Of a stretch of DNA of 64,000 nucleotides, positions 20,135 to 52,372 are shown piece by piece. Below the pieces are notes generated by a model. That model had not been told where the DNA came from and did not search any database. It was given only the letters and a program-made list of their open reading frames with translations. How positions within the stretch are numbered: position 1 is the stretch's first letter; each line of letters begins with the position of its first letter. The stretch comes from Dictyostelium discoideum (Eukaryota): assembly GCA_000004695.1 (NCBI GenBank), contig CM000154.2, positions 3,040,001 to 3,104,000 on the forward strand. Direction: 5' to 3'. The position numbers and the translations under genes were made by a program.

Positions 20135-20169
<35 letters not shown>

Positions 20170-21330
20170 AGTAGTTGGTGTTATATGAGCAGTATGGTAT
20201 GAAGTGTTCCGGGATGTTTATGGTCATGAGTTTCGAGTTCCAGTTGTGGCTGAATTTTTCGAGTCTTCTTTTTATTGATGCGGTCCGATTGATTGACTCT
20301 CGGTTATCAGTGCATCTTAGTTCTTGACGTAGTTGTTTTTCTACTATCTTTCTTGTTCTATCCCATTCGGCATCTCTCGCTTTTTTGATTTTATGAATTA
20401 TTTGGTTCTCTGTTATTATTGTAGTGTTATCGTTGAATTTTATTTGATTTCTTCTGTACCATATCGATTCCATAATGGCTCCTATCAGATTTGATGAGAA
20501 TGGTGTGAGTAGTTTTCCGAGAACTTTTTCGCTCCATGGACCGTGGTAAGTGTTGTTGGAGTCTTTACAGACCTTTTGATAGATTGAGTCGATATTCTGT
20601 TTTATTGATTTGCATTCGAAGAAGATGTGCATAGACGATTCTTCTTCTTTACATGAGTGGCAATTCTCCCCATGGTGTTTTGGAAGTGCCTTGATTAGAT
20701 ATCTCCATGCTAAGTCTCTTCCTTTGATAGTTGTGATTGATCTGGCTTCTCTAAATGGTAGAATTGGGTGATTAATGTTCTTTTGAATCAGTTTTTGACC
20801 TGTTGTTGGCTGGTGTTTGTTCCATCCCTTGTATTTGATATCCATCATGTTTCTATAGATTACTTTTAATTTTTGTTTGTTTTCGTATTTGGGTTTGACT
20901 TGGTTTAGTTTGAGAGTTATTCGCTCTCTTGGGTGGTGCAACAACTTCCAGGCTTTCCAGCATTTGATGTGAATCCTTGATAGTGAGTTTTCTTTTTCCG
21001 ACTTCCAGACTTCCATATGTGGAGGGCAGTTCTGGTCGTCTTTTTCTCTGAGGTATTGTTCGTATATCCATGCTTTCTGGGCATTGGATCTGGTTGCCAT
21101 ATTCCAGAGTTCCAGGCCTCCAATTTCATAGTCTCTTCTGCTCCTTTCTTTTGAGATAGCCCACCTGTCCCCTTTGAATAACATGTTGGCATTAACGTTC
21201 TCCAGTTTCTTTATGTCATTTATTTCGTTGATGTATAGTTGGAATGTTAGTTGGGACAGGAGGTATGATTTGAGGATTGTGATTCTACCTTTTAGCGTTG
21301 ATGACACGCTCGAGTAGCATTGGTGAAGTT
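20040..21330 (-). mobile_element. 5'-truncated non-LTR (LINE-like, TRE-type) retrotransposon fragment: ORF2 C-terminal region, with a 3' poly(A) and (AAT)n tail
   Basis: The 380-aa ORF (20165..21307) has near-balanced base composition, unlike the host. It contains a Cys/His-rich motif (HHGENCHSCKEEESSMHIFFECKS) typical of the LINE ORF2 C-terminus. The stop is immediately followed by an A-run on the minus strand (T-run 20141..20166) and (AAT)n. It lies 5' of, and head-to-head with, tRNA-Val. Confidence 0.6.
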
Positions 21331-45618: not shown

Positions 45619-45820
45619 ATGGACATAAATAATAATATTGACAATATTACAAATAGTAATAATAATATTGAAAAAAATAATAATATTAATAATTTTGATA
45701 ATAATAATAATAATAATAATATTTTATATATTAGTAGTAGTGAGAGCAATAATAATAATAATATTAATAGTAGTAATAGTAGTAGTAATAATACTAACAA
45801 TAGTAATAATAGTAGTATTA

Positions 45821-45868
<48 letters not shown>

Positions 45869-46718
45869 TTTCCATAGAAGGTAATACAGCTAATAATAGT
45901 GATATAAAAGTTGGAACAAGTTTAACGAATTCAATTAAAAGCTTTAAGAAACTATTTAATAATCAAAAGAGTAATAATAATAACAATAATCTTCAAGTTA
46001 ATCATTTTCAACAATCACAATCATTACCACCATCATCAAATACTTCGCCTACATTTTCATCAACATCACCAATTATAATCGTATCGGATAATACAAATAT
46101 TGAATCTTTAGATTTAGAAATAAATAGTAATAATAGTGGTAGTATTGGTAGTAATAATAGTGGTGATAATAATAATATAAATATGAATTATAAATCAAAA
46201 TCCCTATCATTAAATTATTCAATTTTAAGACCTTTATGTGATACTGATAATATTAGTAATAACAATAATAATAATAATAATAATAGTAATAATAGTAATA
46301 ACAACAACAACATGTCATCCTCTGATAATAATAATAATAGTAATAGTAATAATACTACAAATGGTGGTCAACTAAAAAGAAATAATAGTAGTAATAATAA
46401 TAATAGATATAGTATTGGTGGGCCATTAAAAATGTCAAATTCATCAGATTTTAATGATTATTTATTAAATAATAATATTTTATATAATATTAATCAACCT
46501 AATCGTAAAACACCACCACCAAATTTAATGTCAGTTTTAAAGAATAGTTTCACACAATATACACCACCTTCAACAACACTCACATCACCAACAAGTACAC
46601 GTAATCCAAATAGATTATCAACAAATTTATCAAATGTAACAAATATATCCTCTTCAACATCATCATCTTCTTCATCTTTAAATGCTAATAATAATACTAA
46701 TAATAATAATCAACAATT

Positions 46719-46753
<35 letters not shown>

Positions 46754-47076
46754 TACAGCAACAACAACAATTAACAAAATCATACTCTGTTAGTAATTTA
46801 ATGAGATCACAATCATCATCATCATCTTCACAATCACCATTAATTCAACAAAGTGATCAAGTTACATTTGATTATGATTATATTTATAGAAGGTTCCTTA
46901 GAAGTAGAAGTGAATTGACATTACCATCATGGGACAATGCACAATATGAAGGTGATTTCGATACTGAAATCCAAGATACTCTAACTAGAGCTTTATCAAA
47001 TGGTAATTTACCAAGTGATAATAAAAGACAAAGTTTACATTTATCAACTGAATCAACTACAAGTAATAATAATAAC

Positions 47077-47108
<32 letters not shown>

Positions 47109-49627
47109 TAATAATAATAATAAATCAAAAACTGATGATACAACAAATTCTGCTACAACTACAACAACAACCACTACAACTACAACAACAACAACTACAA
47201 CCAATTCAACAACAACAACAACACAATTAAATAATGGTAAAAATTTAATTGGATTAGTTTATAATGATAAAGATGAAGTTATTGCAGGTGAAAGAGATAA
47301 AATTATTGGATTATTTACAGATATTTCAAAAGTGACAGGTACACAATTTTTAGAGGAATTTTTATTTACATATCATTATTATATGACATCAGTTGATTTA
47401 TTAGAGAATTTAAAGGGTAGATTTAATAATCCATTAATGGATCAAGCAGCACAATCAATATCAATACTTGAAGAGAATCATGACAAAGTAAAGATTGAGC
47501 AGCTTTCAACACATATTAGACTTCGTGTTATTAATGTAATAAAGAAATGGATTGAAAATCATGGTTATGCATTCGCAACCGATATTAACCTGTATCAAAT
47601 GTTGGTGGACTTTATAGATGGTGATGTGATGTCGTTCAGTCAAAGATGGGGCCAATATTTGAAAAAGGCAATCAATGATAGTGGCTGTCTATTACGATAT
47701 ATAGCTGTCAATGTAAAAGAAGCATCCTCCAAACAATTGCGTGAAATCATCTCATTGGATAATTTAGATGCAATCTCAAAATTAATGTCACAATCATTAC
47801 AATTGAAAGAACGTAAAAAAGGTTTAAAAGTTATTAAAAATTCATTCACAGGTAATGAAGCTGTAGAATGGTTAATTAATAAATTCAATTTAGATTCAAA
47901 AGATGAAGCACTTGAAACTTTATCAAAAATGTTACAATCAAATTTAATTTTTCATCATTCAAAATCTGGTTCTTCATTTTCTCCATCCTCCTCCTCCTCC
48001 TCAACAACAACAACGACAACAACATCATCATCATCATCGAGTTCGAATACAACAACTGCAAATATGGCATCATCATCTTCTGCAACCGATAATAGCAGCA
48101 GTGGTGGTGTTGTAACTTCTTCATCATCTTCTTCATCATCATCATCTTCTTCACCATCAAATGGAAATGGTACAACAGCTATAACGAGTACAAGTTTACC
48201 AAATTCTATATCATCATCAAATTCAACATCAATTTTAACATCATTAGTTGTAAATAGTAATAGTAGTGGAATTGCTAATGGTTCCTCAACTCCATCAATA
48301 CCATCATCTGTAACATCACCTTTAACAAATTCAAAATCGACTTTAAATTCTACCCCTTCATCATCATCAAATTCTTTTACTTTTAAAGATAAATCAACAA
48401 GTATCTATTATTTTATATTTGAAAATATTAATTTTCCAGAACCAATTGTACCAAAAACATTTTTTTCATCACCAAATTCAACATTTTCAATTACATTTTT
48501 AGATATTCATCCAGTTGAAATCGCTAGACAATTGACATTAATTGATTATGAGTTATTTAAAAAATTATCACCAACTGATTTCTATCATACAGCATGGAGT
48601 AAACCAGATGCAAAAGAGAAAGTACCAAATTTAATCAATTTTATCAATAGATCCAATACCGTTAGTTATTGGGTTGCCACAGAGATTTTATCATCTTCAA
48701 ATATAAAACATCGTGTTTCAGTTTTAAAAAGATTCATCACTATCGCTGAAATCCTTAGAAAATTTCATAATTGGAATACTCTCACTGGTATTTTAATGGG
48801 TTTAAATTTAGGTTCAATTCAACGTTTAAAGAAAACTTGGGAATCTATTGATAAGAAACAATTGGATTCACTTCAAAATTTAATTAATCTAACAAGTGAA
48901 CGTTTAAATTATTCAAATTATCGTAAAGAAATGTCAACTCCAACTTATCCTTGTTTACCTTTTATGGCTGTATATTTAAAAGATTTATATTTTATTGAAG
49001 AAAATCCTGATTATTTAGAAAATGGTTATATTAATTTTGAAAAAGTAAAAAATTATTATTATTATTATTAAATTTATTTAATTTTTATTTAATTTATTTA
49101 ATTTATTAACTTTTTTATTTTATTTTTTTTTTATTTTTTTTTACTTTTTATTTTAGATGAAAATGATTTCTAAAGTTTTAATTGAAATTAAAAGATATCA
49201 AACTGAACAATATTGGTTAAAGAAAATAGATGCAATTGAAAATATATTGAAATCAGTTGTTTTAACTGATAAAGATTTATATAAAGCTTCACATATGATT
49301 GAACAACCTCAAAGAACAATGACTGTTGGTTCAAATTTAAAAGCTCAATCATTTTTAACAACAACAACAACAACTACCACTACAAATAATTTAAATAATA
49401 ATAATAATAATAATAATCCAAATAATAATAATAATAATAATAATAATAGCGCTAATAATAAATCTTCACCATCTCCATCACCCTCCTCCTCTCCAATTAC
49501 TTCATCACCAATATCATCATTAACAATTAACAACAACAATACGATTTCATCAAATTTATCAGCTTCAACTGATAGTAGTATAAATACAAAAAAGAAATCT
49601 TCTTTCTTAATGTTTGGAAAGAAATAA
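45619..49627 (+). CDS. Ras guanine-nucleotide exchange factor with DEP domain (RasGEF_N - DEP - CDC25-homology); 2 exons: 45619..49044, 49157..49627
   Basis: RasGEF_N (IIGLFTDISKVTGTQFLEEFLFTYHYYMTSVDLLENLKGRF..), DEP (KVIKNSFTGNEAVEWLINKFNLDSKDEALETLSKMLQSNLIFH), and the catalytic domain (HPVEIARQLTLIDYELFKKLSPTDF..NFINRSNTVSYWVATEIL..NWNTLTGILMGLNLGSIQRLKKTW..PCLPFMAVYLKDLYFIEENPD..INFEK|MKMISKVLIEIKRYQ). Intron GTAAAA (49045) to tttTAG (49156), 112 nt. The product of about 1300 aa has extensive poly-N/S/T. The architecture matches what is described for the DEP-containing Dictyostelium RasGEF (GefQ), but identity cannot be verified here. Confidence 0.8.
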
Positions 49628-49796: not shown

Positions 49797-50610
49797 GGCA
49801 CGCCAATAACGTTTTGTCAACCTCTTTTTTTATTTTTTACTTTTTTTTTTTTTTTTCAAATTTTTTTTTTTTTATGGCAAAAAAAAAAGCATAAAAGAAA
49901 AACTCGTTTCTTTTTTTTTTCTTTTTTTTATTGACAAACAAACTAAAATGTAAGCATCAATACTTATTTATAAATTTATATTTTATTTTTTTTATTTTTT
50001 TATTATTATTACTTGGTGATGATTAACAGCTAAAGACTAGAGTTTCTGTAAAAACTATTGCTGAGACTATGCATTATTCTTTCCTGATATTTAATATTTT
50101 TAAAAAAAAAAAAAGAAATATATATTTGTGTTAAGAAAAAAAAAAAAAACAAATTTTAACTTTTTTTCTTTTTTTTTTTTCCTTTTTAAAGTTTTTAGGT
50201 TACATAAGTTCTTGATTCATCTAAGTTAGCTCCTTGATTTATTTTATTAATGTATGTTTTCAAAAAAGACTCAGGATAATTTTGCTTTTTATGTTTTAAA
50301 GGTTGCCAAGATTAAGTGATGATATTAATTACCGTCCGATTCTCGAATAAGACGATAACCTTTGGCTGTTTTTTTAAAACACTGATTTTCTTCACATATC
50401 TTTAAACATAATTGCAAAAAATAATATTCATGGTGTCTAAATATTTTTTTTATATTTAAACCAATACTAATATTTTTTTTCTTTTACCATAAATTATTAC
50501 AGATTTTAGAATTATTTTCCTTTTTCTTTCCTTTTTCTCTGAGATTACTTTTTTTATCATAAAATGATTTTAAAATGTTTAAATAAAAATGTTAAATTAT
50601 TAAAAAAAAA

Positions 50611-50720
50611 ATGTGTTTGGTCAATTTGTTTTTTTATATTTTTGTGTTTAAATTTCTTTTTGTTAAAAAAAAAATGTATTTGGTCAATTTGTTTTTTTAT
50701 ATTTTTGTGTTTAAAACCCA
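50611..50720. repeat. about 57-bp direct repeat x2 (AAAAAAAATGT(G/A)TTTGGTCAATTTGTTTTTTTATATTTTTGTGTTTAAA)
   Basis: Two near-identical copies in tandem. Confidence 0.8.
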
Positions 50721-50971
50721 ATTTCTAAATTTTTTTAATCATTTTTTTTTAATTCCAAATTTATTTATTCTTTATGTTTTTTTTTTTTTTTAAAAAAAAG
50801 AAGAAAGTAATATGTTTTAAAATTTTATAGGTTTTTTATTTTTTTTTATAATAAAATTACACGTAAAATTGAGTTTTATACATGTTTTTTTTTTTTTTTT
50901 TTTTGTAGATTTATTTTTTTAAATATGTGGAATTTGTATTTATATTATTATATTACTGTTGTTGGTTTATT

Positions 50972-51571
50972 TTAGTTTTGTTGTAAAAGGTTGGTACCAC
51001 AGGTTTCAGCAATGAGTTTTTCGATTTCACTACCATAAGTGACACCTCCTGCTTTTGGTTGAGTTGATTTAACACCAGCTTCGAAACCTTCTTGGTATGC
51101 TTTTGATTTTTCAGCAGTAGCAGTAGTTTTAATTTCTTTTGATAAATCTTCTTTGGCAATTGATTTGAAGGTATTTAATTTACCGACACCATGTGAAATG
51201 CCAAATAAAACGCTAAGACCATATAAAACCTTTAATTATGTTTGATGTGATGGATAATGATCATTATTATTTTTATTATTATTATTATTTAATTTTGTAT
51301 TTTTATTAATTTATTATTAGTACATCTATATATTTGGTTTAAAAATTTGTGGGTTTCTTTATTTTTTTTTTTTTTTTTCTGCTGTGACTGGGTGAAGATC
51401 GTATAAAAAAAAAAGAAAACAAAAAAAAAAATATAAAAAAAAAGAAGAAAATAATGTCATAATAATAAAATTGATTTGTTTTTTTTTTTAAAAAAGTTAT
51501 TGATATGGGTGTGTTAACACATAAGATATAAGATTACTTACACCGACGAATGAGTTTGGAGTGTAAGACAT
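50972..51571 (-). CDS. small conserved-looking protein, 95 aa (2 exons: 51571..51542, 51229..50972), probably highly expressed
   Basis: ATG TCT TAC ACT CCA AAC TCA TTC GTC GGT | GTAAGT..(312-nt intron)..aattaaAG | GTT TTA TAT GGT.. gives MSYTPNSFVG-VLYGLSVLFGISHGVGKLNTFKSIAKEDLSKEIKTTATAEKSKAYQEGFEAGVKSTQPKAGGVTYGSEIEKLIAETCGTNLLQQN*. Codon usage is strongly biased to C/T-ending codons (TTC, GTC, GGT, GCT, ACC), typical of abundant Dictyostelium proteins. The ORF-track ORF 50953..51159 is the wrong frame of this exon. Confidence 0.45.
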
Positions 51572-51630: not shown

Positions 51631-51671
<41 letters not shown>

Positions 51672-51757: not shown

Positions 51758-52372
51758 ATTATATGTGAAGAATTTCATTTTTTGATGTGTTTGTGAAAAT
51801 AAAAAAAAATAGTAAAACCAAAAAAAAAAAAAAAAAAAAGTAAACTAATTATTTGTATTTGTATTTGTATTTTTTTTAAAAAAATATTGTCTTATTGATC
51901 TCTTTTAATTTTTTTTATTTTTATTTTTATTTTGTTTTTTATGTTGGTAATAAAAATAAACAAAACTACATCAATGATGGTTGGTGTCTAAGGAAAGAAA
52001 AAGAGAAAGAGACCACTTGGAAGAGATATGATTTGTTTGGCTTAAGCAATTAAAGAAGTCTTTAATGGTTTGGATGGCTTATTTGGCTTTGGCATTGGTT
52101 TTGGTGGACAAGTAATAAATTCAATCGATTCAAAATTCATTTTCTAATTATTTCTAAAAGGATAAACACTAGCTTCTTTTGTTTTGTTTTTGTTTTAAAT
52201 TTTTTTTTTTTTTTTTACATTTTATAGTGATTAAAAAAAAAAAAAAACCCAAAATAAAAAAAAAAAAAATTAAATTAAATTATTTACATTATTTCACTTT
52301 TTTTTTAAAAATCTGGGTTTTTTTTTTTTTGGAAATCAAAGATTTTTTGTGATTGGACAAATATAAAAAAAA

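What the first reader, a model, noticed from the sequence alone, without database searches (positions are those of the whole stretch)
50972..51571. Probable highly expressed small gene (95 aa) invisible to ORF calling: 10-codon first exon, 312-nt intron, strong codon bias
In an apparently empty 3-kb intergenic stretch, the minus strand encodes MSYTPNSFVG|VLYGLSVLFGISHGVGKLNTF..AEKSKAYQEGFEAGVKSTQPKAGGVTYGSEIEKLIAETCGTNLLQQN. It has canonical GTAAGT and AG splice sites and codon usage markedly shifted to C-ending and GGT/GCT codons, which is the signature of abundant Dictyostelium proteins. The ORF track reports only a wrong-frame ORF here. The product has one hydrophobic glycine-zipper-like helix (GLSVLFGISHGVG) and is probably a small membrane-associated protein.
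Basis: partly seen in the sequence, partly recalled or inferred. Interest (0 to 1): 0.5.

Follow-up and report, generated by a model that had tools for sequence, protein, structure and literature searches.

The report
Known small gene, probable ATP-synthase subunit
It most likely encodes the social amoeba's version of ATP synthase subunit e, a small membrane protein that helps pair up ATP synthases in mitochondria.

Summary
On the minus strand, exon 1 is 51571..51542 (MSYTPNSFVG), the GTAAGT…AG intron is 312 nt (51541..51230), and exon 2 is 51229..50972, giving 95 aa. The gene is not new: the exact protein is DDB_G0289679 / XP_636052.1 / Q54H66, an "uncharacterized protein" of D. discoideum AX4.

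Comparative evidence confirms the model. The intron position is identical in D. firmibasis and D. purpureum, all exon-1 differences are synonymous, and the exons are far better conserved than the intron.

An exhaustive HMMER search found relatives only in dictyostelids (seven species). All share an N-terminal hydrophobic helix with an invariant S/A/G-xxx-G-xx-Y/H-G motif followed by a basic residue, as in yeast and mammalian ATP synthase subunit e.

Profile-profile comparison with vertebrate subunit e (score 27, Prob 56%, 0 of 300 shuffles reach it) nearly equals the genuine yeast-vertebrate control (29.5, 72%). UniProt names two orthologs "ATP synthase subunit e". Pfam's PF05680 threshold is not met, and yeast QCR9 is a weaker rival.

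The shift to C-ending codons is real but moderate (45% against 12% background). Expression level could not be tested. Interest is low: a correct rediscovery with a modest refinement of function.

The parts
51542..51571 (-). Exon 1 coding part: ATG plus 9 codons (MSYTPNSFVG), preceded by AAAATG context
   Evidence: Identical peptide in D. firmibasis and D. purpureum. The 3 nucleotide differences from D. purpureum are all synonymous.
51230..51541 (-). Intron, 312 nt, phase 0, GTAAGT...AAAG, GC 17%
   Evidence: Same position in D. firmibasis (329 nt) and D. purpureum (233 nt), and GT..AG is possible only at that split. Intron identity is 36-55% against 76-89% for the CDS.
50972..51229 (-). Exon 2 coding part: 85 codons plus TAA stop (50974..50972)
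   Evidence: The spliced product is identical to XP_636052.1 / Q54H66.
51182..51229 (-). Exon-2 part of the predicted transmembrane helix (residues 11-26). Residues 8-10 are the last codons of exon 1 (51542..51550).
   Evidence: Most hydrophobic 19-mer is residues 8-26, FVGVLYGLSVLFGISHGVG, mean Kyte-Doolittle 1.59. AF2 predicts a continuous helix over residues 5-66.
51188..51214 (-). Codons for S16-xxx-G20-xx-H23-G24, the conserved small-xxx-G-xxx-G motif
   Evidence: G20 and G24 are invariant in 7 dictyostelid species. The same extended motif is present in human, bovine and yeast subunit e and absent from QCR9/UQCR10. It is the core of the hhalign match to subunit e.
50966..50971 (-). AATAAA directly after the stop codon: a likely polyadenylation signal
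   Evidence: Read from the sequence. Its function is inferred from general knowledge and was not tested.
51636..51667 (-). 32-nt oligo(dT) run on the coding strand, 65-96 nt upstream of the ATG: a likely core-promoter element
   Evidence: Read from the sequence. Oligo(dT) runs upstream of the transcription start are typical of Dictyostelium promoters (own knowledge). Not tested.

Best explanation
This is the already annotated D. discoideum gene DDB_G0289679. It has two exons and encodes a 95-aa single-pass membrane protein that is conserved throughout the dictyostelids.

The protein is most likely the dictyostelid form of mitochondrial F1Fo-ATP synthase subunit e (ATP5ME in mammals, Tim11/Atp21 in yeast).

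Inferred mechanism, taken from what is established for subunit e in yeast and mammals:
- The N-terminal transmembrane helix uses its small-xxx-G-xxx-G face to pack tightly against neighbouring Fo helices (subunit g, or a second subunit e) at the edge of the membrane domain.
- This stabilises ATP synthase dimers and the membrane bend that shapes cristae.
- The long hydrophilic C-terminal helix projects into the intracristal space.

What is shown: the gene model, its conservation, the helix, the motif, and the sequence resemblance to subunit e.
What is inferred: mitochondrial location, association with ATP synthase, and high expression.
For: Gene model:
- Exact identity to XP_636052.1 / Q54H66.
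- Intron position conserved in three species.
- Exon-1 changes are synonymous only, dN/dS is about 0.45-0.55, and exons are far more conserved than the intron.
- Synteny with a RasGEF/DEP neighbour in D. purpureum.

Family:
- Exhaustive HMMER over 1.84 billion representatives finds only dictyostelid proteins. They come from 7 species, are 87-101 aa long, and have N6, V9, G10, G20, G24, L39, I43 and G58 invariant.

Subunit e:
- UniRef names the D. purpureum (F0ZNK5) and Heterostelium (D3BV32) orthologs 'ATP synthase subunit e, mitochondrial'.
- hhalign of the family against a vertebrate subunit e profile gives score 27.1, Prob 56%, P 1e-4. The match is centred on G20..G24 and the following K/R..LK..A stretch. 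The true-positive control (yeast e against vertebrate e) gives 29.5 and 72%. The negative control (QCR9 against subunit e) gives 12.2 and 0.7%.
- None of 300 segment-preserving column shuffles reaches the observed score (null 11.8 +/- 2.7, maximum 22.6, z = 5.6).
- Human and bovine subunit e rank first and second among 17 small inner-membrane proteins.
- The motif [S/A/G]xxxGxx[Y/F/H]G followed by a basic residue, at the N-terminus, is present in 7 of 7 dictyostelids, in human and bovine e, and in yeast e.
- AF2 predicts one long helix (5-66) plus a short C-terminal helix, which is the shape of subunit e.
- The profile search of PDB sequences returns mammalian subunit e at 13-14 bits. Genuine yeast e against mammalian e gives only 16.5 bits.
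- A pan-eukaryote survey reports that amoebozoans lack only subunits h and k, which implies that an e was found there. It also stresses that such subunits of under 100 aa are hard to predict and to assign (PMC10214729).
- A moderate shift to C-ending codons fits an abundant OXPHOS subunit.
Against: - No family member reaches Pfam PF05680's gathering score. The best is 9.8 bits, E = 1.1, in 1 of 7 members.
- Yeast subunit e itself aligns poorly with the family (score 16-18, Prob 2-4%).
- My canonical subunit e profile is essentially vertebrate-only, so it represents a single lineage.
- Yeast QCR9 as a single sequence scores almost as well (25.6, Prob 52%). It also ties with subunit e in the PDB hmmsearch (14.2 against 13.6 bits).
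- The hhalign match covers only 22-33 columns.
- The AF2 model has modest confidence (pLDDT 64), and fold searches are uninformative for a single helix.
- The only amoebozoan ATP synthase structure (Acanthamoeba) reports a non-canonical, FtsL-like subunit e (PMC13632647). The canonical subunit is therefore not guaranteed in Amoebozoa.
- No localisation, complexome or expression data for this gene could be accessed.
- The basis of the UniRef names is unknown; they are probably automatic.
Confidence: 0.55

Rival explanations
1. It is a real gene, but the product is a different small single-pass membrane protein. It could be a dictyostelid-specific supernumerary subunit of another inner-membrane complex, or a non-mitochondrial membrane protein. 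Its GxxxG helix would then resemble subunit e only by convergence, since short TM helices with small-xxx-small motifs are common.
For: - HMMER finds the family in dictyostelids only.
- There is no Pfam family at threshold.
- The subunit e match is short (22-33 columns) with Prob about 56-66%.
- Yeast subunit e does not match.
- No localisation data were reachable.
Against: - The similarity to subunit e extends beyond GxxxG into the following basic/LK..A stretch, and it beats 300 of 300 composition- and segment-preserving shuffles.
- Thirteen other small TM proteins, several of them glycine-rich (MICOS10, subunit g, EMRE), score 15 or less.
- Two orthologs carry the subunit e name in UniRef.
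- The two best independent small-protein hits in the unbiased PDB search are both inner-membrane OXPHOS subunits.
Confidence: 0.3
2. It is the dictyostelid cytochrome bc1 (complex III) subunit 9, QCR9/UQCR10.
For: - The family profile aligns ungapped over 41 residues with yeast QCR9 (14.2 bits, E = 0.4, marginally the best OXPHOS hit in the PDB search).
- hhalign against yeast QCR9 alone gives score 25.6, Prob 52%.
- The profile comparison exceeds 298 of 300 shuffles (z = 3.2).
- The 'L..DIK' stretch resembles QCR9's 'KLWKDVK'.
Against: - QCR9 is a well-conserved family: yeast against mammal gives 40 bits, yeast against plant 31-34 bits, and references score 90-95 bits on PF05365. Yet none of the 7 dictyostelid proteins hits PF05365, even at E <= 10.
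- Human UQCR10 scores only 12.2, and a three-sequence QCR9 profile lowers the score to 17.7, Prob 5%. A true member should gain, not lose, with a profile.
- The family's invariant G20 and G24 align to non-conserved F/Q/D positions of QCR9.
- The conserved G and W of QCR9's GKLWK are missing.
- The dictyostelid proteins are 30-40 residues longer.
Confidence: 0.1
3. It is not a gene: a chance open frame with fortuitous splice-like sites.
For: No transcript evidence could be obtained here. The spliced junction is absent from JGI metagenome contigs.
Against: - Seven dictyostelid species keep the protein.
- The intron position is conserved, exon-1 changes are synonymous only, and exons are much more conserved than the intron.
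- It is the longest and the only non-low-complexity frame in the gap, with an exon-like GC peak.
Confidence: 0.02

Closest known systems
Mitochondrial ATP synthase subunit e (ATP5ME/ATP5I in mammals, Tim11/Atp21 in yeast; Pfam PF05680 ATP-synt_E)
   Same: - Size: 87-101 aa, against 69-96 aa for subunit e.
- A single hydrophobic helix at the extreme N-terminus carrying [S/A]xxxGxx[Y/F]G followed by a basic residue.
- A long charged C-terminal helix.
- No obvious cleavable presequence.
- A profile-profile score close to that between yeast and vertebrate subunit e.
- Two orthologs are so named in UniRef.
   Different: - The family is below the PF05680 threshold in all members.
- There is no basic residue before the helix: subunit e has R-Y-S, dictyostelids have N-S-F-V-G.
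- The conserved N-terminal MSYTPNSFVG and the C-terminal EGFEAG...EIE..L segments have no counterpart in subunit e.
- The match to yeast subunit e is poor.
Cytochrome bc1 complex subunit 9 (QCR9/UQCR10; Pfam PF05365)
   Same: - It is a small single-pass inner-membrane OXPHOS subunit.
- It gives an ungapped 41-residue weak alignment to yeast QCR9, with F-V-G at the helix start and L..D[IV]K after it.
   Different: - No PF05365 hit, although the family is otherwise well conserved.
- The match is lost with mammalian UQCR10 and with a family profile.
- The conserved GKLWK is lacking.
- The dictyostelid GxxxG has no counterpart.
- The dictyostelid proteins are 30-40 residues longer.
Acanthamoeba castellanii ATP synthase subunit e (cryo-EM, PDB 9ZFU/9ZFT; PMC13632647)
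   Same: It comes from the same supergroup (Amoebozoa). It is a single-pass protein at the dimer interface.
   Different: - The authors describe it as non-canonical: FtsL-like, a predicted recent prokaryotic transfer. Contact between the two e subunits is hydrophobic, and the GxxxG motif is absent from subunit g.
- The dictyostelid protein instead has an invariant GxxxG and resembles the opisthokont type.
Homology between the two is therefore untested.

Membership tests
ATP synthase subunit e (PF05680) | Sequence match to the curated family model at its gathering score (22 bits) | tested here: not met
   None of the 7 dictyostelid proteins reaches it. The best is P0004 at 9.8 bits, E = 1.1, residues 18-57 to profile positions 19-58. 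Yeast, human and bovine references score 59-73 bits.
ATP synthase subunit e (PF05680) | Detectable remote homology to canonical subunit e by profile-profile comparison | tested here: inconclusive
   hhalign score 27.1, Prob 56%, P 1e-4, against 29.5 and 72% for the yeast-vertebrate positive control and 12.2 and 0.7% for the negative control. None of 300 shuffles reaches it. It ranks first among 17 small inner-membrane proteins, but yeast QCR9 is close behind and yeast subunit e is weak.
ATP synthase subunit e (PF05680) | Single N-terminal transmembrane helix with a conserved GxxxG motif | tested here: met
   The hydrophobic 19-mer is at residues 7/8-25/26 in all 7 proteins. G20xxxG24 is invariant. 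The extended [S/A/G]xxxGxx[Y/F/H]G-basic motif is shared with human, bovine and yeast subunit e.
ATP synthase subunit e (PF05680) | Under about 100 aa, with a long hydrophilic C-terminal helix | tested here: met
   Lengths are 87-101 aa. AF2 predicts helix 5-66 plus helix 78-87, with pLDDT 64.
ATP synthase subunit e (PF05680) | Mitochondrial inner-membrane location and physical presence in ATP synthase dimers; loss destabilises the dimers | not testable with these tools
   The supplements of the Dictyostelium mitochondrial compendium, the spatial proteome and the Acanthamoeba orthogroup tables are not held. No paper text mentions the gene.
Cytochrome bc1 subunit 9 (QCR9/UQCR10, PF05365) | Sequence match to the curated family model | tested here: not met
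   None of the 7 proteins is listed, even at E <= 10. References score 90-95 bits.
Cytochrome bc1 subunit 9 (QCR9/UQCR10, PF05365) | Similarity to the family as a whole, not to one member | tested here: not met
   Yeast QCR9 alone scores 25.6, but human UQCR10 scores 12.2 and the three-sequence profile 17.7, Prob 5%. The PDB search hits only the yeast chains, although yeast QCR9 itself finds mammal and plant chains at 31-40 bits.

The most novel reading that the evidence does not exclude
Dictyostelids keep an opisthokont-type, GxxxG-bearing subunit e, while Acanthamoeba, according to its 2026 cryo-EM structure, uses an unrelated FtsL-like protein in that position. If both hold, the replacement of subunit e happened inside Amoebozoa, after the two lineages split. 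D. discoideum would then be a tractable organism in which to compare the ancestral and replaced dimer interfaces.

Alternatively, and equally unexcluded, DDB_G0289679 could be a dictyostelid-specific membrane subunit that only mimics subunit e.
Probability: 0.3. Interest if true: 0.4.

Novelty: already known. Interest (0 to 1): 0.15.

Why it matters
As a discovery it matters little. The gene model is already in dictyBase, RefSeq and UniProt, and two orthologs already carry the subunit e name.

It has some value as a check on method: reading raw sequence by eye recovered a 10-codon first exon and the correct splice sites.

The practical outcome is a small annotation improvement. Q54H66 could be labelled 'probable ATP synthase subunit e', with explicit caveats.

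It also points to the recently raised question of whether amoebozoans retain the canonical dimerisation subunit, a question that genetics and complexome profiling in Dictyostelium could settle.

Tried and rejected
1. Pfam on all family members gave nothing at threshold. The DUF2799 hit (E = 0.11) occurs in 1 of 7 members and is judged to be chance.
2. phmmer and hmmsearch against PDB sequences gave only weak ties between subunit e and QCR9.
4. Word-indexed homolog searches found only the three Dictyostelium species. The exhaustive search was needed to reach the other dictyostelids.
5. My search for diverse canonical subunit e sequences returned almost only vertebrates, so the reference profile is narrow.
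6. Literature: no text hit for DDB_G0289679 or Q54H66. No supplementary tables are held for the five relevant papers.
7. Transcript evidence: the spliced-junction 23-mer is absent from the JGI metagenome contigs.
8. An unmasked BLAST footprint of the intergenic region was swamped by A/T low complexity. It was redone with masking.
9. I considered using ORF 20165..21184 as a 'highly expressed' codon reference. I rejected this because its translation looks like a retroelement ORF, so its C-rich third positions do not reflect expression level.

Full report
**Observation**

The window is Dictyostelium discoideum AX4 DNA. The protein's only contig in the collection is a 5.1-Mb record.

On the minus strand an ATG at 51571 opens 10 codons (MSYTPNSFVG) that end at a GTAAGT donor. 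A 312-nt intron of 17% GC runs to an AAAG acceptor at 51230. The frame then continues for 85 codons to a TAA at 50974..50972.

The exon-2 frame is open only two codons upstream of the acceptor and has no ATG, GTG or TTG. This is why a start-to-stop ORF list shows only a wrong-frame 68-aa ORF here. At 87 codons it is the longest stop-to-stop frame in the 2.9-kb gap between a RasGEF/DEP gene and a 287-aa ORF. It is also the only one that is not poly-K/F low complexity. It coincides with a GC peak of 30-35% in flanks of 9-20%.

**Is it a gene?**

Yes, and a known one. The exact 95-aa sequence is EAL62551.1 / XP_636052.1 / UniProt Q54H66, 'hypothetical protein DDB_G0289679'.

Independent comparative evidence supports the model:
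- Orthologs in D. firmibasis (81% identity) and D. purpureum (67%) lie in syntenic loci. D. purpureum has the same convergent RasGEF/DEP neighbour.
- In all three species the only GT..AG split that reproduces the protein is after codon 10, phase 0. Intron lengths are 312, 329 and 233 nt.
- Exon 1 differs from D. purpureum at three bases, all synonymous.
- CDS identity is 89% and 76%, against 55% and 36% for the intron. dN/dS is about 0.45-0.55.
- An AATAAA follows the stop directly, and a 32-nt oligo(dT) run lies 65-96 nt upstream of the ATG. Their roles as polyadenylation signal and promoter element are inferred from general knowledge of Dictyostelium genes.

**Codon bias**

In the two-fold Y-ending families plus Ile, 9 of 20 codons end in C (45%). 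The pooled value over 19 long ORFs of the window is 11.6% (Fisher p = 2e-4).

GGT (9/11) and GCT (4/7) do not differ convincingly from background (about 70% and about 27%, summed from the per-ORF counts). GC3 is 0.21. The shift is real but moderate. It fits a fairly abundant product but does not prove one.

One window ORF with far stronger C-bias (20165..21184) looks like a retroelement. This shows that C-rich third positions are not always a sign of high expression.

**What is the protein?**

Single-sequence methods say nothing. There is no Pfam family at threshold and no PDB relative.

An exhaustive HMMER search of 1.84 billion representatives with the three-species profile found five representatives, all dictyostelid. 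With the two close relatives this gives seven species: Dictyostelium (three species), Tieghemostelium, Polysphondylium, Heterostelium and one EukProt entry.

The alignment shows an almost invariant N-terminus (M-S/T-Y-T-P-N-S-F-V-G). Residues 8-26 form a hydrophobic helix with G20 and G24 invariant, and K/R follows at position 27. The rest is a charged segment with L39, I43 and G58 invariant.

AF2 predicts one continuous helix over residues 5-66 and a short helix at 78-87, with pLDDT 64.

**The subunit e lead and its test**

UniRef names the D. purpureum and Heterostelium orthologs 'ATP synthase subunit e, mitochondrial'. The basis of the name is unknown, so I tested it.

Against the assignment: none of the seven proteins reaches Pfam PF05680. 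The best is 9.8 bits, although that hit is in the correct register. Yeast, human and bovine subunit e score 59-73 bits.

However, subunit e is notoriously divergent. Genuine yeast subunit e finds mammalian subunit e in the PDB at only 16.5 bits, E = 0.08. The dictyostelid profile finds the same chains at 13-14 bits.

| hhalign comparison | Role | Score | Prob |
|---|---|---|---|
| Family vs vertebrate subunit e profile | test | 27.1 (P 1e-4) | 56% |
| Yeast e vs vertebrate e | positive control | 29.5 | 72% |
| QCR9 vs subunit e | negative control | 12.2 | 0.7% |

The matched columns are the family's most conserved ones: G20, Y23, G24, K/R27, L/F31, K32 and A35.

I shuffled alignment columns while keeping the N-terminal, hydrophobic and hydrophilic segments in place. 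This gives a null of 11.8 +/- 2.7 with a maximum of 22.6, and none of 300 shuffles reaches the observed score.

Among 17 small inner-membrane proteins given as single sequences, human and bovine subunit e rank first and second, at 28.3 and 27.0. The extended motif [S/A/G]xxxGxx[Y/F/H]G followed by a basic residue, near the N-terminus, is shared by all seven dictyostelids, by human and bovine subunit e, and by yeast subunit e.

**The rival, QCR9**

The same PDB search also returned yeast cytochrome bc1 subunit 9 at 14.2 bits, over an ungapped 41 residues. As a single sequence, yeast QCR9 scores 25.6 in hhalign.

I rate it well below subunit e for these reasons:
- QCR9 is a well-conserved family. 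Yeast against mammal gives 40 bits and yeast against plant 31-34 bits. References score 90-95 bits on PF05365.
- No dictyostelid protein hits PF05365, even at E <= 10.
- Human UQCR10 scores only 12.2, and a QCR9 profile lowers the score to 17.7, Prob 5%.
- The invariant glycines have no counterpart in QCR9, and QCR9's GKLWK signature is missing.

It is not excluded. In the shuffle test it still has z = 3.2.

**Context from the literature**

A survey of 219 eukaryotic proteomes concluded that subunit e is ancestral to eukaryotes. It lists amoebozoans as lacking only h and k. It warns that subunits under 100 aa are often not predicted and cannot be assigned unambiguously by sequence (PMC10214729).

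[quoted passage not shown] The authors consider it a recent prokaryotic acquisition (PMC13632647).

The dictyostelid protein, with its invariant GxxxG, looks like the opisthokont type instead. If both statements hold, the replacement happened within Amoebozoa. I could not obtain the Acanthamoeba sequence to compare the two directly.

**Mechanism**

This part is inferred from established work on yeast and mammalian subunit e. The N-terminal helix would pack through its small-xxx-G-xxx-G face against subunit g or a second subunit e at the periphery of Fo. That packing stabilises dimers and the membrane curvature at crista ridges. The C-terminal helix would extend into the intracristal space.

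None of this was tested here. Mitochondrial location is also inferred.

**Verdict**

- 'Highly expressed' remains untested.
- The gene is already known.
- The function is most likely ATP synthase subunit e (about 0.55). Another small membrane subunit is about 0.3, QCR9 about 0.1, and 'not a gene' about 0.02.
- Interest is low.

**Side finding**

About 590 nt downstream, on the other strand (about 50312..50386), lies a probable box C/D snoRNA. See the items noticed in passing.

Noticed in passing
window 50312..50386 (+): Probable box C/D snoRNA in the same 'empty' intergenic stretch.
- Rfam gives sub-threshold CD-box hits: snoR77Y 23.5 bits (gathering score 52) and SNORD49 17.2 bits.
- The syntenic copies in D. 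firmibasis (L002 4105..4189, snoR77Y 25.3 bits) and D. purpureum (L001 3969..4080, Afu_300 23.7 bits) also give CD-box hits.
- It is 93% identical over 87 nt to D. firmibasis, more than the neighbouring coding exon at 87.6%.
- The three-species alignment shows an invariant box C (TGATGA), a conserved guide TAATTACCGTC before a D'-like C[C/T]GA, a 14-nt insertion confined to the central loop in D. purpureum, and an invariant box D (CTGA).
- From memory, the guide's complement matches the universal 18S '530-loop' CGGTAATT, the target of yeast snR77 and plant snoR77Y. This was not checked against Dictyostelium rRNA or published snoRNA lists.
   Followed up: partly
window 20165..21184 (-): A 339-aa ORF with very atypical codon usage for this genome: C-ending 69% in the Y-ending families and GC3 0.44. 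It has no Pfam hit at 1e-3. Its translation has a Cys/His-rich segment (HGENCHSCKEEESSMHIFFEC) that looks like the C-terminal region of a non-LTR retrotransposon ORF2 (the resemblance is from memory). It is probably a retroelement fragment rather than a highly expressed gene.
   Followed up: partly
window 51960..52185 (-): A second GC-richer island (28-30% GC) between the 287-aa ORF and the subunit-e-like gene. It contains a 32-aa ORF (52042..52140, MNFESIEFITCPPKPMPKPNKPSKPLKTSLIA). It is weakly conserved with D. firmibasis (69% over 193 nt), where the match lies about 70 nt downstream of the upstream neighbour gene, and is barely conserved in D. purpureum. It could be a 3' UTR or a terminal exon of the upstream gene. 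This is unresolved.
   Followed up: partly
window 50605..50715 (-): Two tandem copies of a unit of about 60 nt (aaacacaaaaatataaaaaaacaaattgaccaaa[t/c]acattttttttt...) downstream of the gene. They are visible in the sequence and as the repeated peptide KHKNIKKQIDQ.HFFF in a spurious ORF.
   Followed up: no
window 45619..49627 (+): The convergent neighbour is a large RasGEF with RasGEF_N, DEP and RasGEF domains. It is apparently split by a short intron between 49071 and 49157 (two adjacent ORFs). The same gene neighbours the ortholog in D. purpureum, so local synteny is conserved.
   Followed up: partly
L001 2066..2138 (-) (D. purpureum): A tRNA gene (Rfam RF00005, 72.6 bits) lies between the upstream neighbour and the ortholog in D. 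purpureum. No tRNA is present in the corresponding D. discoideum interval.
   Followed up: no
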